Shown here in pieces: positions 2,653-47,556 of a DNA stretch of 64,000 bases. Source of the DNA: Eledone cirrhosa (lineage: Eukaryota). Numbering within the stretch: position 1 is the stretch's first letter; each line of letters begins with the position of its first letter. The stretch spans positions 305,412,001 through 305,476,000 of the forward strand of contig OZ024740.1 in the NCBI GenBank assembly GCA_964016885.1. The letters run 5' to 3'. Both the position numbers and the translations under genes were made by a program. A model generated the notes under the pieces. The model saw only the letters and a program-made list of their open reading frames with translations. It ran no database searches and had not been told where the DNA came from.

Positions 2653-3400
2653 CTGAAAACAAAAATAAAACATAGTTTACTCTATTAATTCTTGGTACAA
2701 TGGAAGTAAATAAACCTATGGCTAAGAAAGATTGTATTTCTCCCATTAAAAAGTGACAACTGTCTTAGTGTCAATCATGTAATAAATGACAAAAATAATC
2801 TAGAATAATGTAATTGGTAAGTATATGTCTAGAAAATGTTAAAGCAATGGTTATGATCAAATAAGTATTTTGATTAAGAGAAAAACGAATGTACTTGTAA
2901 ATGATATTACTAAATAAAAGAAATGTACACTGAACCTATGTATTTATTGCTGGCTGGCTATGTATATAATTTATTATCTCCAGTTAGGTAATATAAATCA
3001 TATTATATCATATATTTTCTACATAAAAATTGTAGAATTTAATTGATAATCCTTTTTATCACCTATTCACCAAATGGAAATATCACATTTTTTGAAATCA
3101 TATGAAAATAAATCTGTATAAACCCCATCTAACATTTCAATGAAGTTGTACATAAAATGTCCTAAGTTGGATGTGTCTTTCTTTTTAGGAAATAATGAAG
3201 ATTTTGAATATTTTATACATTAAAAATCATGAACTTTCTTACATTTAAGAAATTCTCTCATATATATATATATATACATACACACACACATACATATATC
3301 TAGGGAGTGTAACGCGAAGTTACTGTAGGTTCACCCAGGTGAGCACTCGTTTAGGTTCAGATCAGTATTGAGGTGTAGAGCTAGACAGAGTCTAATATAA

Positions 3401-3594
3401 TAATTGTTTCTACTTTAGGCACAAGGCCGCCAGCAATTACCCAGTACATTACTGGTACTTTATTTTATTGACCCCGTAAGGATGAAAAACAAAGCTAACT
3501 TTGGCAGGATTTGAACTCAGATTGTAAAGGGACGTAACTATGCTAGAAAGCATGGCGTCCGACCCTCTACCGATAATGCCAATTCACCGCCCTT
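3401..3594 (-). mobile_element. tRNA-derived SINE, family B
   Basis: A-box/B-box-like head (TGGCATTATCGG; GAGTTCAAATCC) on minus; 14-bp TSD AGAGTCTAATATAA at 3387-3400 and 3595-3608; homologous to other copies in the window. Confidence 0.85.
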
Positions 3595-6256: not shown

Positions 6257-6775
6257 AAATATATAATTTAATTTTTATATACATATTTTCAAATTTATTT
6301 CATTTACCAGTAAGTTTAGTGACATTATGATTAATGAATCATTGTGCTTGTGTATTAATGTGTATGTGTGCGTGTTTATCTCACAGTTTAGTATGTTTGT
6401 GAATTTATTTCATCTTGTTTTCTTCAAACATGAATTCCACCATATTACTTTTATCACACCTTTCAAGTTCACTTGAAAATGTATATTATAATCGTTATAT
6501 ACCCAGTAAAATATCGATTAACGATTCATTTTATATGACGATATGCAAACAATTTTACATTTTATGGGAGTTACCTGTAATTAGAAAAGTTTTGAAACAA
6601 AAATTATATAAATTTATTAAAAAACCTTTTGTTAGGTTGTGTTCCAAAGACCACATCCATATATCAAGTAAACATGTTATAGTTATTTGACGGAACCAGC
6701 TAGTATTCTTTATTTTGTATTTTAGTTAGAAATATAGTAACAAAAAGGGCTAGTGAAGTTATTGAAATTACTTAC

Positions 6776-7088: not shown

Positions 7089-7964
7089 CTAAATAAGAAA
7101 GAAAAATTATTAAGCATAACAGTTAACTTTGTTTGATATAAACTGCCTGAATATTTTAAGGATTGCTAAGAAGAATATTAAATCTATGCTATTAGTATTA
7201 TTATTAGAAATACCAATTATGTAAGATTGTGTCTCAGTAGGCACCTCTTAACCAAATATTCACCCCAATCCACTACCCCTACTCCATCCTCCCACCAACA
7301 CCCTTTCTCTGTAAAGTTGGTACCACAACATCCAGTCCAAATAAATGAGATAATGATGTCACGACAAAAAAAAAAAAAGTCCATGCTCTAATGTGGCCGT
7401 GTAGGTAACACGATAAAAAGTTCCCAGTCCACACTGTAAATGTGGTTGGTATTAGGAAGGGCATCCCGCCGTAGAAAACCTGCCAGATAGTCCTATATGA
7501 GCAAGACACGTTCACCCGACCAGCCTTGCCTCAAATTGGGACAACTCCCGCCTAACCCATGCTAGCGTGGAAGATGGACGTTAAATGATGATGATTCATG
7601 ACAAAGTCTTATTTCCTATATTGAAATCATTTAAATGTAGTTAGGATTTGTAGAATATCAACTATTTCAACCAAATAAGACTAGTATGATTTTTACTATT
7701 TGGCACGATACTTCTGGAAGAGGTAGACTTAAGACATGGGATTGGAGGCCAACCTTATGAAACTAAACCTTTTAACAGAGATAACAAGGGACTACAAGAG
7801 TTGGAGACCTGTGAGCTAATTAATCCACTAAAACTAATCCAGGACCACTACGGCCTCATTTAAATCTTAAACCACCTGTCTTAATAGCTGCTTGCACCAT
7901 ATTGTCATGCCCTAACACACTGCCGTTTACCATATCACACTTCCTCTTTTATTGTATTCACTAA

Positions 7965-8324
7965 AAGCCACAAGAATCCGCCACCACCAAAGGACTACTG
8001 CCACATGAAATTTCGTGTGGACATCACATCTCAGCTACGTGGAGGATATACTTCTCGCAAACACAAAGCTGGGAGAAAGTCAAAATTATCTGAGGTGAAC
8101 AAAGAAAATATTGATTTTCACAAAGTGGAGAAAATTGATGGGAGGAAGGATTGTCGAATGTGTTCTTTGCAAAAGAGAAAAACTGCTAAAGGTTATCCAA
8201 TTGAAATCTCGTTTATGTGTTCCTTTTGCAAAGTGCCATTATGTAAAGGCTGTTTTGGCCAATATTATGTACGTGAATAGATAAGCATGACATTTGAAAA
8301 TTAATGTGAATGCTAAAGGGTTAA
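7965..8324 (+). mobile_element. piggyBac transposon 3' relic (C-terminal Cys-rich zinc-ribbon domain plus right TIR)
   Basis: ORF 8005-8280 has H..CRMC..CSFCKVPLCKGCF, the piggyBac/PGBD C-terminal Cys-rich pattern; ends in TAATGTGAATGCTAAAGGG|TTAA. Confidence 0.75.
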
Positions 8325-12998: not shown

Positions 12999-13046
12999 AG
13001 GTCTTGAACGTGGTCTTCCTCTAGGTTTCTGTTCTTTGATAGACTC
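12999..13046 (-). CDS. AT-hook protein, coding exon 7: ESIKEQKPRGRPRSRP
   Basis: Acceptor ttttctttcttag|GAG, donor CCT|gtaaat; 48 nt, phase 0; PRGRP core. Confidence 0.8.
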
Positions 13047-13141
13047 CTAAGAAAGAAAACAAAAAGCACAAATAAGTGAAAATTATTAACTGTATCATAT
13101 TAGAAATATGGTAGGAAAAAGATTAAGAAAGTATTATTTAC

Positions 13142-13189
13142 AGGCTTTGAGCGTGGTCTTCCTCTAGGTTTCTGTACTTTGTTAGTGTC
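13142..13189 (-). CDS. AT-hook protein, coding exon 6: DTNKVQKPRGRPRSKP
   Basis: Acceptor ttttctttcttag|GAC, donor CCT|gtaaat; 48 nt, phase 0; PRGRP core; paralogous to 12999-13046. Confidence 0.8.
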
Positions 13190-15081
13190 CTAAGAAAGAA
13201 AACAAAAAAACACAAATAATTAACCAGATGGACAAGTTGAAACATTTGTAAATTTAAGTTTATCATTTAAAAGATACTTTGGAGAGATACACCAGAAAAA
13301 ACAAAATTTAGAAATATTAATTTCATACTGCTTTATAATTTATCACAGCTCAGTTGATATATCCTAACTAAAACATTGTAACAAATTCTTTGTCTTAACA
13401 TCTCATCTACTTCTCTCAGTTGGTGGGGCCATAATTAAAAAAGTTCACTGAAATCAAAATAACTCAAAAGCAATTATTTTCTTTTATTTATGCTAAATCA
13501 GTTGTTTTTTTTTGCTCTTGTGTGAAGAGAGACAAAGATAAAAAATATAAGTAATAGAAAGAGACGTATTTCTTTTCTTCCCATATTCTTACTTCAATAT
13601 CTTGTTCACCCCTCTATGTCACATACATATAAATCTATCTACAACTGCTTTTTTTTTTGTTTCTCACTTCTCTCCTTGTCTCCTACTTTTCTGGCACTGA
13701 CAACAATAACAACCTCGTAGGCAGGTTAGTCAATGCAAAATGATTTATCTATCCACCAATTGTGGGTTATTGTAACAATAAGTAAAAGATGGCTATTTTC
13801 GGAATGAATTTAGCCCATCAATGACTATTCTCATAAAAGAAAAAGGTCCTGGAAGAAGTTCCCTGTAGACTTGAGAAAAAAACATGTAAACAGTGTTTCC
13901 AAACAGAACATTGGAATGGAACCAAAAAACAGGATGTGAACCTCTACATCAGCTGTTTCATCTTGAACATTTCTAGCAATTGATATAAACAAGCTCCCAG
14001 GTATTGAATGTTTAAGAAAACGTTTTTTCAGATTTTTGCTCATAGTTTGTGATACTAAATTGTTTATTTAATTTAACAAAATAAATATGCTTATGGAACT
14101 AGTGTGAAAATATCCTACGGTTATTGAGGGAGGTAATCAGTGGTTGTAGTGGAAAACTTAACTAATTTATTTCACAACATTGTTTCAGGTTTGATTTCAT
14201 TATGCAGCACAACTTTCGGCAAATGCCTTCTACAATAAATAGCACTGGATCAACCAAGATGTTGAGCAAAATTTGGTATCGTATATGCTTGTTTTATACC
14301 CATTTATATCGACCTGAGATATGAACACCATTACTGTCATAAATGCAGTTAACTAGTGATTGGGCTGTAAACCTACAACCAACCACATTTTATAGTTTTC
14401 AAACATCAATAAACTTTAGTATTTTGTGCTAATACAAACACGTGTGTATGCATGTATGTCTGTTTAATAAATATGTATCTGAACATGTACAGTATTAACC
14501 AAGACTGCATAAGTGTGTGCGCACACATTCTCATATATATATCTCAATCATCATTTTTATGTCCACTTTTCCATGCTTGCATGGGTTGGTAGGTCCTTAG
14601 CACGGCATCTCTCCACGTCATGATCCTTTCCTTTCTCATTGCCTCAGTGAGCCTCAGTGATTTGAGGTCAGTTCTCACAATCTCTGCCCATATATATATA
14701 TTTTATATATACATAAAAAAAAAAAATCAAAATTTATAAATTGAATTTCCTTGTTAACAGAGTAGATTTAAGATGAGAATTCCATAAGAACCTATTGTAA
14801 AACTGAGACAAACACCACCATATAAACAAAAAATTCAGTTTTATAAAACCAGTTTAAATTCATGATAATTTTAGAGTTTACACATTTCAATTAGAAATAT
14901 TTATGACTTTGCTCATGGCAAAATATCTTGATTCATTTACCAAATCCATAAAAATATATTCTACAAAGTAATGAATAACTAAATGAGTTTCTTGCATTTT
15001 TAACAATAGTAACTATAATAATTAACTCAAAACAATATGGATGATGTTTAGAAAGAAACTAGAATCTGCAATAAAACTTAC

Positions 15082-15129
15082 AATTGGATAAATTCTTGGC
15101 CTTCCTCTTGAACGACCCGTTGGAACCCA
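15082..15129 (-). CDS. AT-hook protein, coding exon 5: WVPTGRSRGRPRIYPI
   Basis: Acceptor acttttttcag|TGG, donor ATT|gtaagt; 48 nt, phase 0; RGRPR core. Confidence 0.85.
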
Positions 15130-15426
15130 CTGAAAAAAGTAAAATTACGAGAGAGAAAATCAATAATAGGAATACAAGAGAGATTACTTCCATATTTACA
15201 CAAATTGATTTAATACAGATTTACTAATGTCTTTGTTATACAAACTTCCTGGTTCTAAAACTTACATTCTGCATCTATTAACTGCAGATGTTCCATTACA
15301 GAATACACTTTATATAGATATACCTATCCTTGAGATTCTTTAAAACAATTTCATATTATCTACCAAGTCTGAAATATAATCATTATATTAATACCCTTTG
15401 AATTTATTATTCCATATTACTAACAG

Positions 15427-15756
15427 AAGGCACATGGCTTAGTGGTTAGAGCATTGGCCTTGCAATCGAAAGGTTGTGAGTTCAATTCTCAGACCGGGTG
15501 ATGTGTTGTTTCCTTGAGCAAGACACTTTATTTCACATTGCTCCAGTTTACTCAGCTGTAGAAATGAGATGATAGAGATGAGGTCCCTATCATTCCACTG
15601 CAAAGTGGTCGTGGAGGTGCCACGGCAAAAAAGCACCCAGCACTCACTGTAAATGAGGTTGGTGTTAGGAAGGGCATCCAGCTGTAGAAATCAAGCCAGA
15701 ATCAGTTCCCGTCCCACCCTTGCAATCAGGGAAAAGGCAGACGTAAAATGAAATGA
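15427..15756 (+). mobile_element. Full-length SINE, family A
   Basis: Reverse complement of the copies at 5916-6256 and 9028-9368. Confidence 0.85.
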
Positions 15757-15844
15757 ATTCATCTACTACTGTCCCCCACCCCCATTAAATTTTGCTCCAA
15801 GCATACTTCCATCTCTCTCTCTCTTTATATATATATATATATAC

Positions 15845-15898
15845 CTTCTTCTTTTCAGACTCTTCTTTTCTAGGCCTACCACGTCCTTTTTTAACTAC
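15845..15898 (-). CDS. AT-hook protein, coding exon 4: VVKKGRGRPRKEESEKKK
   Basis: Acceptor tttcttttgcag|GTA, donor AAG|gtatat; 54 nt, phase 0; canonical AT-hook KKGRGRPRK. Confidence 0.85.
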
Positions 15899-18390
15899 CT
15901 GCAAAAGAAATTGAAAATCAGTTAAAAGATATGTCGAGTAAATATTTACTACAATGGCACAAGACCAGTAATTTTAGGGGAGGGATATAATCAATTGAAC
16001 CAACTCTACAAGAGAAATGAAAGACAAGATCAACTTTGAGTGGGATTTGAACTTAGAAAGCAACTTAATACCACAAAGCATTTATGGTAGCATCCCACCA
16101 TGACCCTCAGAGATTAAAATAATTTAAAACTAACCTTACACAAAATCATAAGCACCTGTCCAATTCCTTAAACCTCTAGAGCAGGGGTGAGCAATCAAAG
16201 GTATTTTATCATTATAACTACTAATTTGCTTTTCAAAAAATACTTAGTTACTAACATATCACTAATTGGATCAGATTCTCAAAAAGGCTGCCTATCTCTA
16301 CATTTAGATTGACATAGCAGCAAAGACAAACACAAACTCTGGTAACTATCAAAGGATCTAAAATGTTAAAAATTCTGCTGTTTACAACACCATCCCAGTC
16401 AACATTAAAATAGTTTTAAAAAACTGTTGACAATGTTTTTAGAAAAACACTTAATAATCAAGATTGTGTCAGAATTGAGAAGAGGTTACCTAACATACTC
16501 AAGATATAAAATGACAATTCCAAACCTAAAGTAATGGTTTCTAATTTAGGCACAAGGCAAACAATTTAGGAAGTTGCCAGCACCCTCAATTTAAAAAAAC
16601 TGGATTAAGGTTTGCGATAAGGTGGAAAACATTAGCTCAAGGCATAATATTAAATTTATCTGATCTTTGGCAAGCATGGCGAAAACTACAGGCATACATC
16701 AGTCTTATTAAACCTCACTGGTGAAATCACCTTTATCGTACCTGCCAGATCTGTACTAATATACTAACTCTATAAATACATTAATGCCCATAGTAAGCAT
16801 AACATAACAATGGACTACACTAATTACCCAGGGATGCCATCAGCCTAGAAAACAAAGTAATTGATTGATACAATGTTACTAACAAAATACGTTAATGAAA
16901 AGCCTCCCTGCAAGTTGCTTACAAAAAATAGAAACGCTAGGAACTTAGACACGACTAAACAAAACAGAATAAAGCCATAACATGATGAATAGAGCTGAAT
17001 TTAGAAAATTTAGATTATTTTGCAATAACTCATCTCTGAAATTTATAGACAAGAAATACTACATAGGAGGTAGAGAGTTTTATATGGGTTGAATGTTTAC
17101 TGAAAATAGGGAGGAAATAACTGTAATAAGGTGCAGATTGTAGTTGACTTAAAAAAAAAAATGTACTCCAACTTCAGGTTGGTTTCAGTAGCATTGGAAA
17201 TTAGACCAAAAAGGAAAATTTCCATTTCAATATCTCATAAATCTATATGCTTGCAGACTAGTTGAACACACAATATTAATAAGTAGGGCAATTCTTTTTT
17301 TATTATTTAAACTTAAAAAATGTTATACCTTATATAGACCTTAAAGATATAAACTTTAACTCAAGATCATTATTCATTAAACAAAAATAAAAATTATTTC
17401 CATATACATTGCTGCAATATAAAATTTCATGTTATCAGGGGGGAAAAAAACTGTCTTTAGTTAGTATTTTATCGAGCATTGAAAAACTACTCAACACTAG
17501 CTGATGTATGTTGATACTTAAACAAGAGAGTGTAAGGAGATATTGAGTTTTCCATTCAGCAAAATCATCTTAGATCATTTTTTATTTGGCACGGATCTTG
17601 GGCAAAATTCAAATCAGTGAGACAAATGTTTCCTCAATAGAATATTGTGAACTTTTCAATTTTTTTTATTAAATCCTTCAGTGGCAAATGGCATCTATCT
17701 ATGTGAAACTCACTTCTATTATTGGCGAACTGACACATCATTTTGCTTTTTCCACAAGAATTCCTCCAAAAGTTCTATTATCTCACAAATGCAGGGTCAA
17801 TTGCTTCGATCCAAATGCCCCATTAAGTGACTACTGGCTCATATGGGAATCTGATATCTTTGAAAAAGGGCCTTTCTAGTGCGATCAGAATTATGAAGGA
17901 AATGTGCAACACGTCACATGAAAAAATTGGGATAGAGGATCTTTCTTATTTAACCTACTTTGACTATATACCTGGCAGCATCTGATAGAAGAAATAAGAG
18001 GCTTTCTCATGCAACGCCTATTTCATACAGATTATCAACAATAACTTGATTTATGATAAATAGAACAGCTGTAACGAGTTCCTCACATACACATGTGTAT
18101 GTGTGTGTCTATGTATGCATATACAAGTTGTGGTTTTCAACCTATACTGGATTATTGTCTCCATTTCATTTACTCTGAAAGCTTTGGCTGTAGAACTGAC
18201 CCCTTTTCTCTCCCCTTAAACATCATTATATTGACCATATGTATAATGAAGTGTATATATATACATAATATTTCATCATCATTTCATTTTATGTCCGCTT
18301 TTCCCTGCTTGCAAGGGTGGGATGGGAACTGATTCTGGCTTGATTTCTACAGCTGGATGCCCTTCCTAACACCAACCTCCAATATATATA

Positions 18391-18780
18391 TTATTGAGTA
18401 AAATGACAGGAGGCTGGACTGGTGATATTCCTTCAAAGATTTATTATAGTAAACACTATGCACATATCAATGACCAGGTTCCGTAGGATCCTGGTGACAT
18501 CAGCTGTTGCCAGTCTGCCAGCCTTTACTTGAAGGCTGGTCATCCAGACTGACAACAGCTGGCCCTGACCGCCTTCGGGCTTTAAACATTTCTATCTGCT
18601 TTACAGCCTCTCGCATTGTGTTTATCATTATTCCTGTATTATTTAACTTTTATACAATAAACACCTGATGATGTCACCAGGATCCTACAGAACCTGGTCA
18701 TTGAAATGTGCATAGTGTTTACTATAATAAATCTTTGAAGGAATTTCACCAGTCCAGACTCCTGTCATTTTACTCAATAA
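18391..18780 (+). mobile_element. Non-coding Penelope-like fragment with inverted pseudo-LTR copy
   Basis: 18391-18502 is the reverse complement of 18669-18780; internal hairpin 18501-18561; AATAAA after the ribozyme-like motif. Confidence 0.7.
18658..18721 (+). ncRNA. Minimal type I hammerhead-ribozyme-like motif
   Basis: Stem I TAAACAC/GTGTTTA; core CTGATGA (18665-18671); stem II ACCAGG/CCTGGT; GAAA (18703-18706); short stem III TGTGCA followed by UA (AUA cleavage triplet). The base of stem II is imperfect. Confidence 0.6.
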
Positions 18781-19548
18781 TAATTAACTCCATTCTCGCA
18801 GCACCAACAAGATTCAACATAAACGAAGATGGATGAGTTGCATTACGTCAAGTCCTTTTCCTAATATTACATCACGGTTGACTATACGGAATGACCAGTT
18901 CTATCCAGTGGTGAACCAACAGACCTAAATGTATGTATAATATATATATATATATATAATATGGGCATATAAAAACGATATATATGTATGCGTATATATG
19001 CGTGTGTGTAAATATTACCATTGCTGGTTTTATTCCTTGTAGATTCTGCCCAATACCAGCCAAAGTCCCTTAAAAGATTGAACTGGAGACAGTATTTATG
19101 TGTGTATATATGCATGTATATAAATTTAAGTCACACTACCACCACTAATTCTAGTTTTCACCAGTTTCATTTTTGATTTTTATTAATTTCTTAGGGAATT
19201 GTTTGATCATCTGCTTTTGCTAATTGCTTTATTTCTTTTCTTTCTCTAAGACTCTAGATGTTTTCTTTGAAAGGAAAGTTCTGACAATTTTCAATATTTT
19301 AAATAAGATTTTAATCAATATTTTATATTTAAATTTTTTTAAAGAATTTTTAGACCTAAAAATTTTTTTTTATTTGCTATTTTTAATCAATATATGTTTC
19401 TGCCATTTCTAGGCCATTGTAAACTTTCATAGACTTATAGACATTTTAGCAAAAAATTGTCCTACTAATAAGTCAATTTCAAGGCGAGAGAAGTAAATTT
19501 AGATTTTGAAGAGAGATATAGAAGAAAGTGGTGGTTGAAAGAAATTAC

Positions 19549-19596
19549 CTCAGAACTTTCCTTAGAAACTGCCTCTGTGGTGTCATTGGAATCTGC
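19549..19596 (-). CDS. AT-hook protein, coding exon 3 (acidic): ADSNDTTEAVSKESSE
   Basis: Acceptor cttttctgttgtag|GCA, donor GAG|gtaatt; 48 nt, phase 0, open. Confidence 0.7.
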
Positions 19597-19658
19597 CTAC
19601 AACAGAAAAGCATATAAATTATAAATCTCAGGAAACGGAATAACATCACCACAGAGTC

Positions 19659-21197
19659 CCACGCCCCATTATCTGGTGGGCTCTCAGAAAACTAGGTGTT
19701 GATGAATGGCTTGTGAGAGCTATACAAGCCATGTATAAAGAAACAGTCAGCAAGGTTAGAATTAACAACGAATATAGTGAAGAGTTTAGCCTAAAAGTTG
19801 GTGTTCATCAGGGCTCCGTCCTTAGCCCCCTCCTATTTATTATTGCCCTTCAGGCTATAACAGAGGAGTTCAAGACCAGCTTCCCATGGAAACTCCTATA
19901 CGCTGATGATCTAACGCTTATAGCTGAATCAATGGCTGAACTAGAGAAGAAATTCCAAACATCAAAAAGGCCTTAAAATTAACCTGTCTAAGACTAAAGT
20001 TCTAGTATGTAGGAATGAAAATAGGGCACTGGTCCCATCTGGGAAATGGCCATGCTCAGTGTGTAGGAAAGGAGTAGGCAGAAACTCCATTTTATGTCCC
20101 AAATGCAAAGTATGGGTGCATAAAAGATGTAGTGGGATCACAGGTAAGCTAACTAAGAAAATTAGATTTTATATGTGGCCGGTGCTCAGGTGCAATAAGT
20201 AGCAAGTGCCAACAGAATACTAGCTCATTCCATTGCACAGATGGTTCTATAGAAATAGTGGACACCTTCCGTTACCTGGGTGACAAAATCAGCAGTGGTG
20301 GAGGGTGCTCTGGAAGTACAGTAGCTAGAGTCAAAACGGGATGGAAAAAGTTCAGAGAGCTTATACCACTATTGGCCACTAAAGGTTTCTCTCTAAAAAT
20401 GAAAGGCAAGCTGTATGATGCCTGCATACGAACAGCAATATTACATGGCAGAGAGACATAGGCATTGTGTGCAGAGGATCTACGCAGACTAGAGAGGAAC
20501 GAAGCTTGCATGCTCCGTTGGAGGTGTAATAGTAATATATATGTGAACAGCAAAGCATAAATGAACTAAGTGAGAAATTAGGAATAAGAGGGATCAGATG
20601 CTGTTTACTTGAGAGAAGGCTACGTTGGTACGGTCACGTGATGCACATGAAAGATGACAGCTGTATAAAAAAGTGCAAGTCAATCAAAATAGACAGTAGC
20701 CACGGAGTAGGCAGACCCAGAAAAACCTGGGACGACTTGATAAATTCCGACCTCACACACTTACACCTCTCCAAGACAATGTCACTGGACTGAGATCTTT
20801 GGCGCTACGCAGTAATACAGAAGACCCGCCTTGCCTAAGTACAAAGCGAAACCTAGTCAGTAGGCACCTCTTAACCAAAATACACCCCCATCCTACTACC
20901 CTCACCACTTTCGATCTAAAGTTATGTTGGCACCACAACATCCAGTCGTAAATAAATGAGGTCGTGTAGGTGTCACGACAAAAAAACACAGTCCACGCTG
21001 TAATGTGGCCATGTAGGTAACATGGTAAAACTTCCCAGTCCACACTGTAAACGTGGTTGGTATTAGGAAGGGCATCCAGCCGTAGAAAACCCGCCAGACA
21101 GTCCTATACGAGCAAGACAATCAATCTTGCCTCAAGTGGGAAAATTCCCGTCCAAACCCATGCTAGCGTGGAAGATGGACGTTAAACGATGATGATG
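19659..21197 (+). mobile_element. RTE-clade LINE, 5'-truncated, frameshifted reverse transcriptase plus 3' UTR
   Basis: GVHQGSVLSPLLF, LLYADDL, FRYLG and RLRWYGHV..GRPRKTW across broken ORFs; 3' UTR ends in (GAT)n. Confidence 0.9.
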
Positions 21198-22726
21198 ACT
21201 TACTCCCACCATTCCCCGATACTAGTATGTCACTGGTAACAGTAATTGCTTGGGGTTCAGGAAGATGGCTCACCAGATTTAATTTTAATGAATTTGCATG
21301 AGACTTACAAGATCAGTCACAGACTGGGCATCTATTTGCTCAGCATAAATAATTTTAGTAAACTCCTCAAAATTCTCAATCAATTAATTGAAATGTGCAT
21401 TTCATTAGCAATATGGGCACAAAATGGTTAAATGAAAGACAGTCAATGACAATATAAATATTGCTCTCTATTTTACTTCATGTTACTTTTTATATTCATA
21501 GTATACATTTACTTTCATGTAATAAACAAATTTGATCAGGATTTCTTAAATATCAACACTTGAGCTCTTTTGATACCAACCCAGCCATGCTTGTACAAAA
21601 CAAAATTGATTTTAAAAGGTTCCTATATAAATTCAAATCTTCCATCATAAGTTACTATCATCATCATTTAATGTCCCTTTTCCATGCTAGCATGTGTACA
21701 ACAGGCTGCCCTGTCGTGAGAGATCCAGGTTGAAGGACCGTGTTTTGCTCACACAGAACTGATTTTGGCTTGGTTTCTTTGGCTGGATCTCCTTCCAAAC
21801 GGCAACCACATTTATAGTGCATGATGGGTGCTTTTTGTCGTGACACCTAGACGACAGCTTTACAGTGAGCTGGGCATGTTTTGTTGTGTCGCCAACATGA
21901 CTACTTTACAGTGTGGACTGGGTGCTTTAGTCGTGTCACCTTCATGACCACTTTATAGTGTGGACTGGACACAATGTCTGGGGAATTGAGGAGGTAGGTA
22001 TAGTGGTGGGATGATTACAGCAAGGGAAGTGTATGGTAGGGAAGGTGTTGCATACTAGATATGCCCTAGCTAATGCATATTGAAGGGCAGGTCTTCTGTA
22101 ATACTGCATAGCACCATAATAAAATAATAATTTTAGTAAACTCCTCAAAATTCTCAATTAATTGAAATATGGTCACAAAATGGTTAAATGAAAGAGGACA
22201 ATCAATGACAATATAAATATTACTATCTCTTTATTTTTGTTCAGCAATGACAACATTACCAGTTTCACAATCGACACAAAGCAGAGAGTAGCAGGAATTA
22301 AATACCAGTATAATACTAATGAAATTATGGAATATCCTAAAAGCATGGTTAAAAATCAGTGCACCCCAAGAACTAAATTATTATATCAATCATATATCAA
22401 ATACATCATAACGTTCATGTATCTATAAAAAAATGTTGCATATAGTCCATGGTGGTTATGATTAATTGTCTAGATACAGTTTCTATGAACAGAATGAGCA
22501 AAGTTAGGAATAAGAGTTGGTTCAAATACAGTTAAACAGGCATCTCTAATCTCAATCTAGTAAACTTCGAAATTTGTGGAGTCTTATTTGGAGGAAGGGG
22601 GGATTAATTAATGAGAGGAGCTCTTGGTTTGTTGCTGACATGTTGCTTACTGTACACTAACTCACTAACCCTCATCCTTTTTATTATCAACCTCCACTTT
22701 GGTCTTATTATACAAAATTGCTTGCT

Positions 22727-22957
22727 TTAACCCATTCATGACTGCATTTCTAATACACACTATTTCAATCAATTAATGAAAAATTTTGAAGGATTTACTG
22801 AAATTATTAATTATTTCATTACTAAGATAGTAACTTAATATAAGGTTCTTATATAAATTTTGGAAGATTCTAATTTAAATTGAAAACCTTCAAAATGGGC
22901 AACTTTATTTCATAGAACCAGAGCTAGTTTTGGTTGGGTTAGTAACTAAAGAGTTAA
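22727..22957 (-). mobile_element. TTAA-flanked MITE, family 2 (related copies ~42480-42710, ~52830-53042, ~53822-54035)
   Basis: TTAACCC...GAGTTAA ends; shared internal ataattttagtaaa/ctggttctatgaa blocks between copies. Confidence 0.55.
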
Positions 22958-23135
22958 AGTGTTCATATCTAAATTAAAAAGTATTATACTGTAAGAACTT
23001 TTTAAGTTACGCATCATACACCAATTGCATAATTGAATAATAAACAATGTATATCAGAATAATTGTCACAAAAGGCTTAAAGATTACCACTAGTCATATA
23101 TCATCTCAGATTCTAATATATTCCATGCCAATTCT

Positions 23136-23342
23136 TAACCCTTTAATGTTCAAACCAGCCAAAATTCTCTACCCCTTTCTGTTCAAACTGGCCACTCATA
23201 CTGATGTTAAGGCATTGTTCTCAAAATAAATACTTTCAAAATCTCATAGATTCGATATTATGAGAGATAATTATGCAAGGTAAAGCCTTTACCGTGAAAA
23301 TATAATAGTATATATAGAGTAATGTGAATGCTAAAGGGTTAA
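23136..23342 (+). mobile_element. piggyBac-type MITE, family 1
   Basis: TTAA|CCCTTTA...AATGCTAAAGGG|TTAA; homologous to 37753-38848 and 56315-56726. Confidence 0.8.
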
Positions 23343-23354
23343 AAGAATACTTAC

Positions 23355-23390
23355 AACATCTTCATCGGCTTTCATTTCTTTAGCGGGCGT
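23355..23390 (-). CDS. AT-hook protein, coding exon 2: TPAKEMKADEDV
   Basis: Acceptor ttcttttctttttgtag|ACG, donor GTT|gtaagt; 36 nt, phase 0. Confidence 0.8.
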
Positions 23391-24098
23391 CTACAAAAAG
23401 AAAAGAAAATAAAGAAAATATCCAAGATATAAATATTTACATCTATTTAATGCTATTTCTCTACCTAACCACCTAAATAAAAAATAAAATAAAATAAAAA
23501 AATTCAACATGGAGATTCTCCCAAAATTAAAAGTCAACACATCAGATATGCCTCATACTACTGTTTCTGTATAAGACCAGCAGAAGATTTGTATAGCTAC
23601 AATCCTTGAAATATAACTTGCATACCTACACACATTATGCACATATATAAAAACCAAACAATAAATCATTACAATTCAAATCAGATCCACTTCCATATGA
23701 ATGTTCAACCTGATAAAAATAGCAACCAAATCGCCCTCAAATCACCCCTGACTATCCTAAAAAAAAAAATAAGGTTGCATTACTGTAGCCCTGGATATAA
23801 TATGCCTTTCAAAAGATGAATGGTTACAGTTGTACCATTTTTAATCATAAGTTCTCAATCAGGCCTGACTTGGGACAAAGCAATCTAGCAAAAACTTTCA
23901 ACACCTTTTAAATTAAAACTAAATAGGTTTTCAACATACCAGCACTGATGTGAATTGGAAGATTGTATGAAAATAAGGTTCTTATATAAATAAAAATTTT
24001 CCAACATGATTTCATATCTGAAGCTATCTTGGTAATGGAAAAAAAAAAAAAAATTTCATAAATCACTTAAAATTTGTCATTAATTCAAATATAGTGTT

Positions 24099-24205
24099 AT
24101 TTTAATAGAAATATAGGCACAAAATAGTTAAAACTACATTTAGGTTTCGCTCCACGAAACCTAAATGTAGTTTTAACTATTTTGTGACCATATTTCTATT
24201 AAAAT
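24099..24205. repeat. Near-perfect 51-bp-arm hairpin
   Basis: attttaatagaaata..cacaaaatagttaaaactacatttaggtttcg-CTCCA-cgaaacctaaatgtagttttaactattttgtg..tatttctattaaaat. Confidence 0.9.
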
Positions 24206-24344
24206 GTTTAATTTTTTTTGTTGACCAGTGAAAATGAAGACAAGATACTCTAAATAAGTCAGTCCACCATCTAAACTAACCAAATCTAATCAATAAGGTA
24301 TACAACTAAATAGAATTTAAAACAGAAATAATTTAGATTCTTAC

Positions 24345-24395
24345 ATCAGAATTAGGTGAGTCTTTCCGGCCCCTTTTGGCACTTCTGGATGACAT
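24345..24395 (-). CDS. AT-hook protein, coding exon 1 (start): MSSRSAKRGRKDSPNSD
   Basis: ATG at 24395 downstream of acceptor ccctttttttaaag; donor GAT|gtaaga; phase 0. Confidence 0.75.
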
Positions 24396-25339
24396 TCTGG
24401 ACTCTAAACACTAAAACTTTAAAAAAAGGGAAATAAAGCTGAGTAAACTTCGCCATGCAACCCAAAATATTTCTGTCACAGTAATAGAGTAGTCTTTGTA
24501 GAAATATTGGGCCAGCAGTTATTTGCCAGAAAAATAAGTTTTAGTAAGAATAAAAATTCATTTCTGATAGTTAAAAAAAAAAAAAAAAAAAAATCTCAAT
24601 GCCTAATAGTTTCAAATTCTACTAAAACAAAATTTTGACCAATACCTAGTCAAATTCAGGTGTCATGTATGAATATATCAACATCATCACTGTTTAACAT
24701 CTATTTTTCCACACTAACATGGGTGAGATGATAATATATCTAGATATATCATTATCATTTAACGCATATGAGGCCAGCCAAGTCAGGTGACTACATCATA
24801 CAGATGTTTTGGGCTTGTTGTTTTCTACAGTTGGCTGCCTTTCCGAATGCCAACCATGTATGTTACAGTGTGTACTGGAAACTTTTCTTGTAGCTAACAC
24901 CACTTTTCAGGGTGGACTGGGTTATTTTCTTGTCATGATACCAGTATGGCCACTTTACAGGATGGACTATGCTTTTTTGTTGTGACACCAGCACAACCAC
25001 CTTACAGAGTAGACTATGTTTTTGTTGTAGGACCAGCACAGTAAGGGTGTAAATGTGGAGCTTGTCTGGCTTTGCATGCGTGAGTTTGGCAGCAAAGGTG
25101 TATCAATGTTTGTGGAGAGAGAGTAGTACATTGATAGTCATTTGACTACTTCTCCATGTCTGCCTAAGTCAGATGGTATATTGCACTCGGATACTAGGCC
25201 AGACAAGAACTCACCCAGTTCATAAGGACTTTGTATATTGGTATGGGTTGAACTTAGTTAGGAGAGAGTGGGGGTTGAATGAGAGCTGCCTTTCCATGCT
25301 GGAAAAAGTTGGTTGAGAGGAGACATGTTAGGTCAGCTT

Positions 25340-27783: not shown

Positions 27784-29563
27784 AAAATATTTTGAGAAAA
27801 TACAAGCAACAACCAAATTGAAAAATAAAACAAATTAAACTTGTTTGATGAAAAACTTCAAAGATTCAAATAAATGAATAAAAAGTTCAATGAAACAAAA
27901 ATTAAAATCTATCGAAATAACAAAGGAATAGAAAATGAAGGGGTAAAAAACAAGAAGAAAGCGAACAAAAAATAACCCGCCGTTCTGGGAAATGAGAAAA
28001 AGATGAGTTGAAATATTAAATGAAGGATCAGGTTAGCCAATATTTTCTGCTTGGACTTGATCACTATTTTGTGACCAGATATTTTTCTCTAATTTTTATA
28101 TAACTGTTCTGGGAACAGCAGCGAAATTTAGGTAGGCTGCATCATTCTCAGAGTTTTCTTCTACACAGAAAGGAAAGGGTTGATTATATTACTTAAATAG
28201 AGCAGGAGAGAACTATAGCTAATCATAAAACACGTTTCAAACAGAATTCTGCACACTCAACTATTAATATTACTATATATATAGTAAAAACTCCAGAATA
28301 ACAAGACTCACTATTTAGCCTTAATAAAATCAATATTAAAACTCTACTTCGGTAATGAATACTCCCTTCTCTCAGCCGTCAACTATATATATATATATTT
28401 GTTTCTACTTTTGGCACAAGGCCACCAATTACCCAGTACATTACAGGTACTTTATTTTATCGACCCCGTAAGGATGGAAAGATATATAATAATAAGTTGA
28501 CGGACCCAGCATATTTATCAATGCCATTAGTGTTTTATTACACTGGAGTTTCGCTTGTCATATATATACATATGACAAGCGAAACTCCAGAGTAATAAAA
28601 CACTATATTTAGCCTCAATAAAATGAATATATATATATAACGTATAAATGTGAGAATTGTATTTTCTTTAATGAGTAACAAAATATAATTGAAATAAATA
28701 CTTAGTATATAGATATAGGAAAGTGTATATTACGATTATGATATTTAAAATAAAAAAATATGTCCACGCAATTCAGTTGTAGACATGACATTGTATTCTT
28801 ATAGAAAAATCTAATATTTATCTTCATTGATATTCAACATTATCAACTTGAAATTGGAAGGCATGATAATCTAAAAGATATTCAGTAAATGGAAGCATTT
28901 AAGGAATTAACTATACAATAATCGGAATCTAGACATTCGAAGATTTATCTCTGAAATTTTGTGTAAAAAGAAACCGGCGGTAATAAAGTTATAAGGAAAC
29001 AATATCGAGGTAGGAGCTAAACTGAAGTTATGTCAATTTACTAAAGGGGGGAGCAGACGATAAAACTTAAGTTTCTATAATGTTACTAGAAAGAAATTTA
29101 ATGAAACTGCATATAACTATAAATAATTTAATATAAAATACATCATGTTGCTAAGATGATATATTACATAAAATAAAAATACTCTGAAAATTTTAAACAG
29201 ATTACAAGAGACCCCTAAATACCTATTTCGTAGCGAAGGTAATGGAACGGAGCCATTAATAATAAATAATATATTATAGGTATATTTATATCTAGGAATT
29301 AAGGCAAAAAATAAATATTGGAAATCTAAATTTTTTATATGAAAATACTAATAAAATGTGAATGAGTTTTATTTTGTTGAAAGATTGGAAAAGTTTAAAA
29401 CATAAGAAACTAGAAAATGTTTTCCCGGTAAAATTAGTTCTACTTATGGTGGAAAGGGTGACAGTTATGATAGTGCATTGTTTGAAAATCTGCATCTTTC
29501 TCCCTACATATAATATTAACACACCAACAATAACATTGATATAACCGTTTCTAACATATATAT

Positions 29564-31612: not shown

Positions 31613-32169
31613 ACAGACTATCTTTTACGTAAATTTTTAAATAATAAACAGGAAAAGAAAAAAAAAGAAGACTACACCCCTGATTAGATGGTATATTTCA
31701 GATGCGCCTCATGAAAGCATTGGTGGGGAGAATAGCCTGCAAAACCCACTGCATCAGACATTCCGCCTCACATGGTTCCTTCCTCAAGTGGGTTGCCGTT
31801 CTCCTGTATTTCAGAGGAAATCAGCTAACTGGAAACCAAAGACACCAGATAACTTGATGGCGACCAGCACTAAAAGGAAGCAGTTGATCAAGTCCCAGTA
31901 TTTGCTCCTCTTTAGACTTTGTGTATGATGATGATGTATATATACATATATATATTGTTATATTTGGGGAGGGTCATATTATAATATTGCCAGAAACAAT
32001 AATAAAACACACTCCCTGTTTGGTTTGGATTGGTTTTCGCTTCTGTATATTCTATATCCCTATAGTTAATTTAGCTGGCAATCAATGTTTATCATTGATT
32101 GACCAATGGTTAAAAATATCGATATATAAATATATATATATATATAAAGGAGGAGGTTATAGATATGCC

Positions 32170-33900
32170 TTTAGATACGCCTTTAGCCTCGACGTTGTCT
32201 CCCTCTACACTACAGTCCCCGCTCATCCAGCTGTCGATTTATTGACGGACTGCGTGGTCGCAGAGGACATCCACTGCTACGGCCTCCATCCGACGGACAT
32301 ACACCAGCTTTTGTCCTTCACAGTAGACAACACGTACTTCACCTTCCACCACCACACATACAGACAGACAACAGGATTACCCATGGGATCCAGCCTATCG
32401 GGCCTGCTGGCCATCACCTATATGAACCAGCTAGAATGCTGAGCCCTCAACACATGCCATTCCCATACCTTCTTCACCCGATATGTAGATGACATACTCA
32501 TCCTTACATCATCCCGTAAGGAGGCAGATAAAATATACACAACATTCTCCAGCATGGACGCCAGTATAAAGTTCAGCATGGAACACCCCGATGACCGCGG
32601 ATCCCTATCCCTACTGGACTTCCAACTCAGGGTAACAGAGGAAGGCAACATCCACACCTGCTTCTATAAAAAAGCCGCCAGCAGGGACCTGTTCGTACAT
32701 TTCAGATCGGCCCTCCCAGCAGGCGCTAAGTTTGGATACATAAGGAACGAACTTACACGTATCCGGAACAAATGCACCGACGCTAGAGACCGAGACACAC
32801 ACACCACACATTTCCTGGAAGTACTCAAACTGAATGGATACACGACATCCACCACAAACCGTGCCAGAAAGAACAGAGGACACCACACCCGAGGCACTAA
32901 CACTTGCTTCCTGAAGCTCCCACACTTCAGTGACGAAACAACAACAGCCATCCGCAGAGCTATCAGACGAGAGGGACTAGATATCCAACTGGCCCTTCTC
33001 TACGCGGACAGCTAACCAAAAGACACTCCACCAGACATGACAACTGCTGCAGGCTAGCCAACTGCCCCATCAACGACACAGACCTATGCCACCAGGCTTA
33101 CGTCGTATAAAGACTAGAGTGTGACAAATGCAGCAACTTCTACGTAGGTAGCACCACCAGACTACTCCACATAAGAATAAAAGAACACCTGAATACTAAC
33201 ACTTCCTCATTTAAGAAACACCTAGTTAAATGCAAAAACACTGACAAAACCATAACAGTTAGGATAGAAACTAAGGAAAGAAACCTCAGCAATCTTAGAA
33301 TTAAGGAAGCACTAATTATAGACAAAACACAACCACCAATCAATAATAGACTAGAACTCAACACCCAATTTATAACTTGATAGAGCTTCTAGCCCCATAT
33401 TTACAACCCCCCCCCCCACACACACACACTTACATCTCCACTTATTCTCTCTCACACACACACATACACACACAAAGACCAGTTCTAACACGAGATAGCA
33501 TCTATCCCCCACATTTACGTATAGACATATCTTCTCACTCTCACACACACACACTCACCTACTTACATCTTCATGCATTCTCCCACACACTTAAACAGGC
33601 ATGTACAAAAACAAAAAAAAACTTTTAAAGGGAGACTACTCTTTATCCACCTAACCTTAACTCTTTGATATTAGAGATAGAACAGATACTCTATACCATT
33701 TCCTGTCAGCATGACTTGGCAAGCTATTTAGAACACTGGTTTAACCGCTTTACTTCCCTCCGAAGAAGAGATATTATCTCGAAAATTAAAGACATTTAAA
33801 TAAATCTAAGGTAAAAGACTAATTGTCAACAATATCTTTTGCATTTGCATTCTTTATTCTATGTCCATACCTGCATTGTTTTGGCTTTATTATACATATA
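32170..33900 (+). mobile_element. Penelope-like element (reverse transcriptase plus GIY-YIG endonuclease), 5'-truncated and frameshifted
   Basis: SLDVVSLYT, YRQTTGLPMGSSLS, RYVDD, LSLLDF, FLKLPH and VVYRLECDKCSNFYVGSTTRLLHIRIKEHL. Confidence 0.9.
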
Positions 33901-33939: not shown

Positions 33940-35170
33940 TCTATCAAAGTTCTTTCATCACATACCTGTGACATCATCAGTGGTACTATTATGTTTCCTC
34001 CCGTTGTATTGTAATGTCTACTCCATTTTTTATTTTTTTATTTATTTATTCATCCTTGTCTCTGAGCGTATGTTTGTGTGTGTTTTCTGTTTGGTGTGTG
34101 TTCGTGTATTTGTATTCTATCTTTGTTCACTAGTGTGTGGTTGTTGTTATTGTACCAGTGTATATTTATTTATTTATATTTATCTTAGGTCAGTATTGTG
34201 TGTTTGTGCATGGTTGTTGTTATTCCATTCGTTTTTTCTGTTCAACTTTGGTTTTCTTAGTTCTATTTCAGTTGCTTCTCTGATTTGTCTACCTGTTGAA
34301 TCATTTCTATGTTGTCTATATTACCATCATGTCTTCGTCTGGCGTGTTCATATAGTACCAATGTCTTTTTGTCCTTTTAGTTTACCCCAGTGTTGGTCTC
34401 TCTGCTTCGAGCTGTCTCACCTATGTGTGTCATGTTTCTGCAAGTACCCTCTGTACGTCTTATGCTAGAGACTACATTTCTAGTTTTACAATTTATTTGT
34501 GGATTTATTCTACATATAACACATTGCTTATTGGTACAGTGGGTTTTCTTAAAAGGATGTTTTGCTGAGCAGGGATTTTCTACCACTTTAATCTTTAGAT
34601 GCGTCTTTCTTAGGGCTTTTCTAAATTGGTTAGCTAATTTCCCTCCAGGGGTTGCATCCACAAACATGACACTCTGGTATCTTTAGTTGTTGTACCATGA
34701 AGTGGCTTTCCTTATCTTATGTTTAGTCCTATCTATGTTATTCCATGATTTGCTCCTGTACAATGAACTCTTTCATGTCCATCTCTATGAGGGTCTTATA
34801 TTTCTCCGTAGCTCCTTTGTACACTTTGATTCTGCCTCTTTGGTTGTAGCCAGAGAACTGCATGCAATTGATGAAGTGTTGAATGGGTCTTTCCATTTCA
34901 GTTGGATCACACGTGCAGGATACATTTTTCATCATTCTTACCAAGTCTGCAATCAGAATATTAAACTTAGCACTATCGGACATTGCTGAGTTTTTGTGTA
35001 TAAGGTATTTGGGGGCCATGAGTTTAACATAATGTGAGTGGAGAATTTGGGTTTTCTCGTTTATAGTGTTTAACCAGAGTTCAGTGTCTAATAATGGTAG
35101 TCTATTGTTAGGATGTTTGGAAGGGAAGTCAATAGTTACTGTTATGCTCTGGTCTATGGAATTAGCTTTG
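33940..35170 (-). mobile_element. Second, distinct Penelope-like element, degenerate
   Basis: Minus strand gives DFPSKHPNNRLPLLDTELW, HKNSAMSDSAKFNILIADLVR, MFVDATPGGKLA and C..C..C..RNVV...HIGETARS (GIY-YIG-like). Confidence 0.8.
33942..33985 (-). ncRNA. Degenerate minimal hammerhead motif at the 3' end of the second Penelope
   Basis: Minus: TACCA CTGATGA tg TCACA ggta TGTGA t GAAA GAACTT TGATA. Confidence 0.45.
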
Positions 35171-35667
35171 ATAGACTATATATATATATCATCATCATCG
35201 TTTAACGTCCGTGTTCCATGCTTGCATGGGTTTGGACGGAGGGTTTTCCCACTTGAGGCAAGAGTGGTTATCTTGCTCGCATAGGACTATCTGGCGGGTT
35301 TTCTACAGCTGGATGCCCTTCCTAACACCAACCACATTTACAGTGTATATATATATATATATATTTATTTATATCTATATTTTTAACTTTGGTCAATCAA
35401 TGATAAACATTTATTGCCAGCTAAATTAACTATAGGGATATAAAATATACGGAAGTGAAAACCAATCCAAACCAAACAGTGAGTGTGTTATTATTATTTC
35501 TGTTAATATTATAACAATATGACCCTCCCCAAATATAACACTATTTGTTTCAACACATGATTTCATATCAAAAACCTTGCAAAACAGATATATATATATA
35601 AACAATTGAAAAATTTTACTTCTTTCATCCCCAAACCATATTTATTCTCTGACATGTTTTGAAGGAA

Positions 35668-40989: not shown

Positions 40990-41174
40990 GGGCGGTGGAT
41001 TGGCAGTGTCGATAGAGTGTCGGACGCCATATTTTCCAGCATAGTTACGTCCCTTTACGGTCTGAGTTCAAATCCCACCGAGGTTGACTTTGCCTTTCAT
41101 CCTTACGGGGTCAATAAAATAAAGTACCAGTAATGTACTGGGTAATTGCTGGCCTGGTGCCAAAAGTAGAAACA
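40990..41174 (+). mobile_element. SINE, family B (other copies ~12515-12675, 38970-39135, 55610-55783, 58464-58650, 63316-63533)
   Basis: TGGCAGTGTCGA A-box, GAGTTCAAATCCC B-box; 15-bp TSD ATTATTAAAGGATCA. Confidence 0.85.
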
Positions 41175-41309
41175 ATTATTAAAGGATCACCTTGAGAAAT
41201 AGATGGCCAAGTGATCAATGTTGTAAATATACAGTTAAGGGGTTGGTCATTTGTATCATGCCACTAACAATGGGTTGTGTCCATGGCTAAGACAGTTATC
41301 TCTTATATA

Positions 41310-44189: not shown

Positions 44190-44279
44190 TTACGCATTTT
44201 TTGAAAGTTCGTTAGACAGCCAGTCAAGACCTTCATATAAACCAGTACCTTGTGTTGCACATGTTGACTGAATGTACCA
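44190..44279 (-). CDS. ARF4: ADP-ribosylation factor class II, last coding exon: [29 protein letters not shown]
   Basis: Acceptor tttgtttgcag|TGG; G5 TCAT motif; class II-type C-terminus WLSNELSK. Confidence 0.92.
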
Positions 44280-45097
44280 CTGCAAACAAAAGAAAATAAT
44301 ACAAGTTAAAGCTAGCCTCTTATCTAACTACTTACTGCTCAAAAGTAGGAGTGATGTTATTCCTACATCAGACCTTATTCATAGTAAAATTACTTAGCTT
44401 TATTTTATCAACACTGATGAAAACCAATGTTGAATTTGGATTATTTTGAATTCAACTTGCAATAATAAACCAAAATACTATAGAGTTTGGTGCTCTTAGC
44501 TATGTATACACACATATATACACATGCACATTACATATATATATATATATATATATAGTTTGTATTTGTGTTGAAGGACATTGTCATTTCCAGCTAATAA
44601 CTGTGGAGGCATGTGCCCTTGTGGTAAGGGTGTTGGACTTATGATTATAATGTTGTGGGTTTGATTCATGGGCTGGGTTGTGTGTTGTGTTCTTGAGTAA
44701 AACACATCATTTTATGTTGCTCCAGTATATTCAGCTGAAAATGAGTTACCAGTAATAGCTGGAGGTTTAACCTTGTGATGAACTGGTGTCTTGTCCAGTG
44801 AGTAGTCTTGTATACTCTGTCACTGCATGTCATGAAATCAGGATAAGCACCTGCCTGACGAGCCTCCTGGCTTGGGACAGACTTTAGACTAGAGAGTTAA
44901 TAACTAGAGATCACAAAATATTTGTATTACTGTATTCAAATGTGCCAAACAGCCTTTCAATGCTCCATGCATTAAATATGTTGATACTGATTTATCTATA
45001 AAAAAACATTGCTGATAGTAGATTAACAGTACGCTATTGATTGTTCACAAAATTTTAAACGTTACAACCTCAATAGAATCTGAAAAAACAAATTTAC

Positions 45098-47310: not shown

Positions 47311-47556
<246 letters not shown>

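What the first reader, a model, noticed from the sequence alone, without database searches (positions are those of the whole stretch)
18391..18780. Small non-coding fold-back element carrying a hammerhead ribozyme motif inside an intron
Seen: 18658-18721 folds as a type I hammerhead (7-bp stem I, CUGAUGA, stem II, GAAA, near-palindromic two-pair stem III, AUA triplet). The ~110 nt from the core to the 3' end are repeated inverted at 18391-18502, and that inverted copy stops inside the catalytic core. Known: Penelope-like pseudo-LTRs and retrozymes carry minimal hammerheads proposed to cleave as dimers, and Penelope insertions often have an inverted partial pLTR. Inference: a ~390-bp non-autonomous ribozyme-bearing retroelement. 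The complete core is antisense to the host gene, so it would not cut the pre-mRNA. The base of stem II is imperfect, so this copy may be inactive.
Basis: partly seen in the sequence, partly recalled or inferred. Interest (0 to 1): 0.72.

Follow-up and report, generated by a model that had tools for sequence, protein, structure and literature searches.

The report
Two-armed Penelope stub with hammerhead
This fold-back is one of many short, two-armed leftovers of a protein-less jumping element that carries a known minimal self-cutting RNA motif, and the fixed start and stop points of its copies suggest that a Penelope-type enzyme likely copied just the front end of the element's RNA twice, once from each side of a DNA break.

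Summary
The hammerhead motif (18658-18721, +), the inverted repeat and the intronic, antisense position (AT-hook gene, - strand) are confirmed. The boundaries are not: the insert runs 18390-18931 and includes a 150-nt tail. The left arm is internally deleted, not simply truncated. It is a stub of a dispersed family (about 2,600 unscored first-look candidates) whose parent is a ~2.3-kb non-coding unit in Penelope-type partial tandems. It is not a 390-bp element and not a tandem retrozyme. The U·U at the base of stem II is a family trait (173 of 180 arms), not decay. Family statistics: two fixed 3' ends 150 nt apart; two-armed inserts pair unlike ends (67 of 71 views); 38 of 48 long arms stop within a 24-nt stretch at an initiator-like TCACT; no sharp pile-up at the ribozyme cut. 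Most likely, a Penelope-type RT/endonuclease primed both sides of a (TA)n break at two internal RNA sites and ran off the RNA's 5' end. The architecture is published, and this scan noted the same pattern on other DNA. Cleavage, expression and the helper element were not shown. Interest is modest.

The parts
18381..18389 (.). (TA)n target remnant, left side; no target duplication can be told
   Evidence: sequence
18390..18503 (-). Left arm, outer part: inverted copy of the pLTR-like segment from its first fixed 3' end back into the ribozyme core; core dead (A9 lost at the deletion, GAAA changed)
   Evidence: 4 mismatches in 114 nt to the right arm; outer end 18390
18501..18525 (-). Left arm, inner part: 5' end of the pLTR-like segment, joined to the outer part across a 109-nt deletion (plus a 5-nt deletion); forms the short junction palindrome
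   Evidence: (I4)
18527..18781 (+). Right arm: pLTR-like segment from the putative transcription start (A of an initiator-like motif) to the first fixed 3' end
   Evidence: family alignments and end statistics
18528..18579 (+). Family-conserved 14-bp stem closing the 5' end of the putative RNA
   Evidence: 89% of cells paired versus 23-44% for slid controls in 108 arms, with U-A/U-G/C-G exchanges
18658..18721 (+). Minimal type I hammerhead, dimer type; predicted cut 18714/18715
18782..18931 (+). 150-nt tail: the part of the parent unit that follows the pLTR, ending at the second fixed 3' end
18932..18962 (.). (TA)n target, right side
   Evidence: sequence
19549..19596 (-). Host gene exon upstream of the insert (predicted HMGA-like AT-hook gene)
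   Evidence: in-frame exon chain
15845..15898 (-). Host gene exon downstream of the insert, carrying an AT-hook
   Evidence: Pfam AT_hook above cut-off

Best explanation
The insert is a two-armed stub of a dispersed, protein-less ~2.3-kb element with Penelope-type ends, likely written into a (TA)n tract by a borrowed Penelope-type reverse transcriptase/endonuclease that would prime both sides of the DNA break at two fixed sites 150 nt apart in the element's RNA and copy toward the RNA's likely 5' end. Shown: family membership, non-coding parent in partial tandems, two fixed 3' ends, pairing of unlike ends in two-armed inserts, pile-up of 5' ends at one place, conserved hammerhead core. Inferred: that the pile-up is the transcription start; that each arm was primed separately on RNA; that the hammerhead cleaves only as a dimer (palindromic helix III) and is not needed to make these stubs; that a coding Penelope-like element supplies the enzyme. 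This copy is a dead-end product: its complete ribozyme is antisense to the host pre-mRNA, which instead carries a long double-stranded hairpin.
For: Family: 2649 first-look candidates for the element, 2499 for the tail, but only 99 and 97 for upstream and internal parts of the parent (40 scored each). Parent: pLTR-tail-internal-pLTR partial tandems and unit-length copies (L091, L092); majority unit 2273 nt, longest stop-free frame 102 codons, no tblastn match to 8 PLE protein pieces better than E=0.38. Two 3' ends: of 30 copies picked by the ribozyme core, 14 end at the pLTR end, 10 at the tail end, 6 elsewhere. Of 165 arms picked by exact 3'-end patterns, 71 had an inverted partner with a classifiable end, and 67 of these 71 views paired unlike ends (73 had no partner, 21 other). 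In 26 of 55 distinct unlike-end inserts the tail-less arm reaches more than 10 nt further 5' than the tailed arm (14 the reverse, 15 equal), so it cannot have been copied from the tailed arm's cDNA. Partner arms are closer to each other than to other copies (7.8% versus 10.9%; 31 of 42). 5' ends: 38 of 48 arms that reach the zone stop within 24 nt at the TCACT motif, versus 6-18% in nine other 24-nt bins (29 of 34 by a second alignment method); the outermost common start is the A of that motif. Ribozyme: 0 of 11 core columns vary at >=10%, versus 16 of 60 and 7 of 38 flank columns; one stem II pair switches A-U to G-C (112 versus 31 arms); helix III spacers stay self-complementary. Published parallels: inverted 5'-truncated copy, one-sided tail, (TA)n bias (PMC8557442, PMC3846280); RT starts at two internal RNA sites, both DNA strands cut and extended, ribozyme dispensable in vitro (PMC11167929).
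Against: No coding partner was found: none of 170 tail ends led into a shared sequence other than the non-coding interior, and the one abundant coding PLE tested has a different pLTR and hammerhead. The 5' stops are spread over about 16 nt and coincide with the 5' strand of a strong hairpin, so RT release at that hairpin is an alternative to a transcription start. 10 of 48 arms pass the site. 45 of 165 mapped 5' ends moved between the two alignment methods. Arm views are not independent, pattern-picked copies favour consensus-like ones, and the compensatory stem II change is probably one subfamily event. In the predicted start-to-tail RNA of this copy the hammerhead stems are not the favoured fold. 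The tail (150 nt) is far longer than the published 30-40 nt.
Confidence: 0.7

Rival explanations
1. Ordinary random 5'-truncated ends of a Penelope-like element, with the inverted arm made by fold-back self-priming of the cDNA or of an antisense template (the model proposed in PMC3846280), and the 5' pile-up caused by RT release at a hairpin rather than by the RNA's start.
For: Head-to-head arms with a junction palindrome are what that paper describes. Arms share variants. The stop zone overlaps the 5' strand of a 14-bp stem. In 15 of 55 inserts the two arms end within 10 nt of each other.
Against: In 26 of 55 inserts the tail-less arm is the longer one at the 5' side, and in several the tailed arm holds only tail sequence, which simple fold-back of one sense cDNA cannot give. 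Second arms do not cluster at the hairpin's 3' strand. An antisense-template version is not excluded.
Confidence: 0.2
2. The copies are ends of an autonomous, ORF-bearing Penelope-like family whose coding master was missed; the 2.3-kb non-coding unit is only one deletion derivative.
For: Only 40 of some 2,600 candidates were scored per search; other hammerhead stubs in this scan were traced to coding elements (unchecked notes).
Against: All sampled continuations upstream (30 loci) and downstream lead to the same non-coding unit, which has no ORF or PLE protein similarity.
Confidence: 0.15
3. A ~390-bp self-contained ribozyme retroelement or retrozyme that spreads through ribozyme-cut, possibly circular RNA.
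For: Conserved hammerhead core and dimer palindrome; a weak excess of 5' ends in the 24 nt after the cut (27 of 148, uncorrected p=0.04).
Against: Arm lengths vary from copy to copy, so there is no 390-bp unit. No same-strand cores closer than 907 nt in 336 loci. Only 4 of 165 arms start at the cut. Copy ends are the two fixed sites, not the cut.
Confidence: 0.05
4. A miniature inverted-repeat DNA transposon or an assembly fold-back artefact.
For: Long terminal-looking inverted repeats and TA flanks.
Against: The arms differ by substitutions and a deletion; one arm always runs on into a tail; 73 of 165 arms have no partner; hammerhead polarity and 5' truncation fit a retro-element.
Confidence: 0.02

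Closest known systems
Insertion units of endonuclease-positive Penelope-like elements with inverted pLTR and one-sided tail (Arkhipova et al. 2013, PMC3846280: passages and Discussion read; Craig et al. 2021, PMC8557442: passages and section 11 read)
   Same: Head-to-head inverted 5'-truncated arm, junction palindrome, tail on one arm only, partial tandems, (TA)n targets, initiator-like TCACT in the pLTR; pLTRs alone can mobilise unrelated interior DNA in trans.
   Different: No RT or GIY-YIG ORF in the parent; tail is 150 nt instead of 30-40; clade cannot be assigned without the protein.
[quoted passage not shown]
   Same: Type I, CUGANGA/GAAA core, long helix II, palindromic helix III, mostly single dispersed motifs, pairs on opposite strands 100-700 bp apart.
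   Different: The paper's conserved G10.1-C11.1 pair with one 5' bulge is replaced by a U·U opposition at the base of helix II (equivalently one extra U on each side of a G-Y pair); helix I is 7 bp rather than 4-5.
PAc (Poseidon of Anolis) in vitro mechanism (Frangieh et al. 2024, PMC11167929: parts 1-2 of 4 read)
   Same: Two internal RT start sites that define the tail; AT-rich targets; both strands cut and extended; ribozyme cleavage not needed for insertion.
   Different: PAc is coding; in the parts read, the paper does not report that the two arms of one insert use different start sites or that copies end at the RNA start.
Metazoan non-LTR retrozymes (Cervera and de la Pena 2020, PMC7229834: passages read; Li, Clavereau and Pollet 2026, bioRxiv 10.64898/2026.07.22.740005: part 1 of 5 read)
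   Same: Non-coding, type I hammerhead, proposed PLE origin; axolotl HHR_Amex2 also has U·U at the base of helix II and still cleaves.
   Different: Retrozymes are 150-450-bp tandem repeats processed to circles; this family has a 2.3-kb unit and no short tandems.

Membership tests
EN+ Penelope-like elements | Single ORF with telomerase-like RT and GIY-YIG endonuclease | tested here: not met
   No ORF over 102 codons and no PLE protein similarity in the parent unit
EN+ Penelope-like elements | pLTRs formed by partial tandems | tested here: met
   L091 and loci with truncated pLTR/tail directly before the interior
EN+ Penelope-like elements | Inverted 5'-truncated arm with tail on one arm only | tested here: met
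   67 of 71 classifiable views pair unlike ends; tail length 150 nt is outside the published 30-40
EN+ Penelope-like elements | Insertion bias for (TA)n | tested here: met
   124 of 170 tail ends run into microsatellite
Non-autonomous PLE-dependent element | Identified coding partner sharing the pLTR or tail | tested here: inconclusive
   One abundant coding family tested, different pLTR; other PLE families not examined
Minimal dimer-type hammerhead of pLTRs | Conserved CUGANGA and GAAA core with UH site and helices I and II | tested here: met
   0 of 11 core columns variable; compensatory stem II pair
Minimal dimer-type hammerhead of pLTRs | Palindromic helix III able to pair between two molecules | tested here: met
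   8-bp self-duplex, -6.0 kcal/mol here; common family variants keep self-complementarity
Minimal dimer-type hammerhead of pLTRs | G10.1-C11.1 pair with a single 5' bulge | tested here: not met
   U·U in 173 of 180 arms, next pair G-U or G-C; similar first-pair variation in other hammerhead families of this genome
Minimal dimer-type hammerhead of pLTRs | Self-cleavage | not testable with these tools
   Needs in vitro assay; no sharp genomic footprint at the cut
Non-LTR retrozymes | Short (150-450 bp) tandem repeats, one hammerhead per unit | tested here: not met
   No same-strand cores closer than 907 nt in 336 loci
Non-LTR retrozymes | Circular monomer RNAs | not testable with these tools
   No RNA data available for this stretch

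The most novel reading that the evidence does not exclude
The family is a fossil record of the Penelope integration step: an RT/endonuclease dimer uses a different internal start site for each end of one double-strand break, both copy the same uncut RNA up to its start, and the two cDNAs are joined head to head. This would explain in one stroke the one-sided tail, the inverted pLTR and the flood of solo hammerhead stubs, and it shows that a 2.3-kb protein-free passenger with a 150-nt tail can use the machinery.
Probability: 0.5. Interest if true: 0.6.

Novelty: new member of a known kind. Interest (0 to 1): 0.35.

Why it matters
The motif and the architecture are known, so the locus itself is ordinary. 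What adds value is the family-level count: it argues against fold-back self-priming and for two separately primed arms, and it names exact RNA positions (start, two priming sites, cut) that can be tested with an existing in vitro PLE system. It also warns that 'inverted-repeat mini-elements' with hammerheads in such genomes are usually stubs, not self-copying units.

Tried and rejected
Rfam scan: no hammerhead family at E<=10; these minimal forms are simply missed. Ribozyme-cut footprint in 5' ends: 4 of 165 arms at the cut, weak excess in the following 24 nt: inconclusive, not used as support. Tail-to-ribozyme pairing (18890-18902 with the 3' strand of stem II): present in this copy and predicted to disrupt stem II, but subfamily changes on the ribozyme side are not compensated in 81 arms: rejected as a conserved switch. 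RNA-editing scars: no A-to-G excess between arms (C>T 77, G>A 40, A>G 39, T>C 30). Helper element: the abundant coding PLE seen at 34380-35175 has another pLTR. Coding capacity of tail and interior: none. A possible intron in the pLTR (polypyrimidine tract plus YAG about 80 nt after the putative start) was seen by eye only and not tested. First stem-pair probabilities were off by one base and were redone. PDB search with one host exon frame: nothing. Lunse, Weinberg and Breaker 2017 on dimer-cleaving PLE hammerhead variants is not held; only its title was seen in a reference list, and it may already cover the U·U variant. Paper searches found no description of this family, of unlike-end pairing counts or of start-site pile-up; the library lacks most subscription papers and Repbase/Dfam, and no supplements were read.

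Full report
Observation. Stem I (18658-18664 with 18715-18721), CUGAUGA (18665-18671), a long stem II, GAAA (18703-18706), a self-complementary six-base spacer and a UA triplet end give a predicted cut at 18714/18715. A descriptor for minimal hammerheads finds only this site in the window and 0.01 sites per 64 kb in 100 simulated sequences. Rfam does not detect it. The inverted arms are 94% complementary over 121 nt. Five short - strand exons with AG/GT ends join in frame into an HMGA-like protein with AT-hooks, and the insert lies in the intron between 19549 and 15898. So the complete ribozyme is antisense to the predicted pre-mRNA, which carries a long hairpin instead.

True extent. The genome (3.0 Gb, 1796 contigs) gives 2649 first-look candidates for the element, of which 40 were scored. 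In 13 of the 30 loci fetched, including this one, the shared sequence runs on past 18781 for another 150 nt, and that tail has 2499 candidates of its own. The insert therefore spans 18390-18931 between (TA)n tracts. The left arm is not simply cut off in the core. It lost 109 nt by an internal deletion and resumes up to a fold-back axis at about 18525-18527, so both arms reach the family's common 5' zone.

Parent element. Walking upstream and downstream leads to one unit of about 2.3 kb: pLTR with hammerhead, tail, AT-rich interior, then the pLTR again. It occurs as partial tandems and as unit-length copies. Interior probes give only 97-99 candidates, so most copies are short ends. The unit has no stop-free frame above 102 codons and no similarity to eight PLE protein pieces from this genome. 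Of 170 tail ends, 124 run into microsatellite, 14 were classed as running into the interior, and among the 32 others the only shared continuation was again the interior. An abundant coding PLE of the same genome has a different pLTR and a hammerhead with the usual bulge and G-C pair. The helper element is unknown.

Ribozyme. In 187 distinct arms, none of 11 core columns varies at 10% or more, against 16 of 60 and 7 of 38 flank columns. One stem II pair switches from A-U (112 arms) to G-C (31), probably a single subfamily event; other pairs exchange G-C and G-U. The helix III spacer stays self-complementary in its common variants and forms an 8-bp duplex with a second molecule, as described for pLTR hammerheads (PMC4209133). 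The U·U at the base of stem II is in 173 of 180 arms, so it is not decay of this copy. It departs from the G10.1-C11.1 consensus of that paper, but an axolotl hammerhead with the same mismatch self-cleaves (PMC7229834). In the predicted start-to-tail RNA of this copy the hammerhead fold is not favoured. Cleavage is untested.

How the copies were made. I took all 165 arms that match two exact 3'-end patterns, a choice blind to 5' extent, and 30 of 142 copies matching a core pattern, blind to 3' ends. First, there are two fixed 3' ends: 14 of 30 core-picked copies stop at the pLTR end, 10 at the tail end, 6 elsewhere. Second, two-armed inserts pair unlike ends in 67 of 71 classifiable views; 73 arms had no partner and 21 were unclassified. 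Third, in 26 of 55 distinct unlike-end inserts the tail-less arm reaches further 5' than the tailed arm, in 14 the reverse, in 15 they are equal. A second arm made by fold-back on the first cDNA could not be the longer one, so both were likely primed on RNA. Partner arms are still closer to each other (7.8%) than to other copies (10.9%; 31 of 42), fitting one template or one active subfamily. Fourth, 38 of the 48 arms that get that far stop within a 24-nt stretch whose outer limit is the A of a TCACT motif, versus 6-18% in nine other bins (29 of 34 by another alignment method). PMC3846280 calls TCACT initiator-like in a rotifer pLTR, and the Drosophila Penelope has an internal promoter with an initiator (PMC2377424, passages). 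A 14-bp stem with base exchanges begins one base after that A; it fits an RNA 5' end but also offers a rival cause for RT release. Fifth, only 4 of 165 arms begin at the ribozyme cut, so the template was mostly uncut RNA.

Mechanism. These counts fit the in vitro behaviour of the Anolis element PAc: both strands cut in AT-rich DNA, reverse transcription starting at two internal RNA sites that define the tail, a predicted dimer, and no need for ribozyme cleavage (PMC11167929). The simplest reading is that each side of a break in (TA)n primes at a different site near the front of the passenger RNA, both copies run toward the RNA start or fall off earlier, and the two cDNAs are joined head to head. 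The steps from end statistics to enzyme action are inference.

Comparison and novelty. Inverted 5'-truncated arms, a one-sided tail and (TA)n bias are standard for endonuclease-positive PLEs (PMC8557442; PMC3846280). The family works like such an element but lacks the defining ORF, so it is filed as a non-coding dependent, not as a PLE proper. It fails the tandem test for retrozymes. It differs from published cases by its 150-nt tail and 2.3-kb protein-free unit. Unchecked notes of this scan report the same two-fixed-end and start-site patterns for other families here and in other genomes; they are leads, not support, and no note matched this sequence. That the host is a cephalopod is taken from those notes and from the repeat landscape, not from a test. 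Verdict: real, correctly recognised in kind, mis-bounded, a new member of a known kind; interest 0.35.

Noticed in passing
window 12999-24410, - strand: Predicted HMGA-like AT-hook gene: exons 24345-24410, 19549-19596, 15845-15898, 15082-15129, 12999-13046 join in frame; last exon not located.
   Followed up: partly
window 44194-50660, - strand: ADP-ribosylation factor gene, at least five coding exons.
   Followed up: partly
window 33980 (- strand) and 34380-35175: Decayed copy of a very abundant coding Penelope-like family (20106 first-look candidates, open frames above 1000 codons elsewhere) with its own hammerhead-like core.
   Followed up: partly
window 31888-33015, + strand: Broken reverse transcriptase of a second, Penelope-looking element (clade label by eye).
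   Followed up: no
L006:984, L052, L020:1095, L018:1953, L002:1333, L008:156, L019, L096:617: At least six other hammerhead-bearing repeat families in flanks, all with palindromic helix III spacers; several have U·U, A-U, G·U or C·A at the base of stem II instead of G-C.
   Followed up: partly
L004:2038-2178 (oriented), L040, L055, L193: Some inserts carry an inverted tail beyond the tail end or two tailed arms, exceptions to the unlike-end rule.
   Followed up: no
L092:4071-4204 and 6604-6740: A unit-length copy is flanked on both sides by pieces of another (TA)n-targeting repeat, showing nesting of such elements in the same tracts.
   Followed up: no
window 18278-18380: The insert sits directly after the end of another common short repeat seen in many flanks.
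   Followed up: no
window 3394-3464, 28391-28456, 39082-39145, 41118-41180, 55605-55666, 58458-58519: Six copies of a ~65-nt repeat also found inserted in L091.
   Followed up: no
window 19472-20461, 7888-8277, 61857-62534: LINE-type RT fragments and a DDE-transposase zinc-finger fragment.
   Followed up: no
L095:2162-3725: Long C2H2 zinc-finger array next to a large two-armed copy of the family.
   Followed up: no
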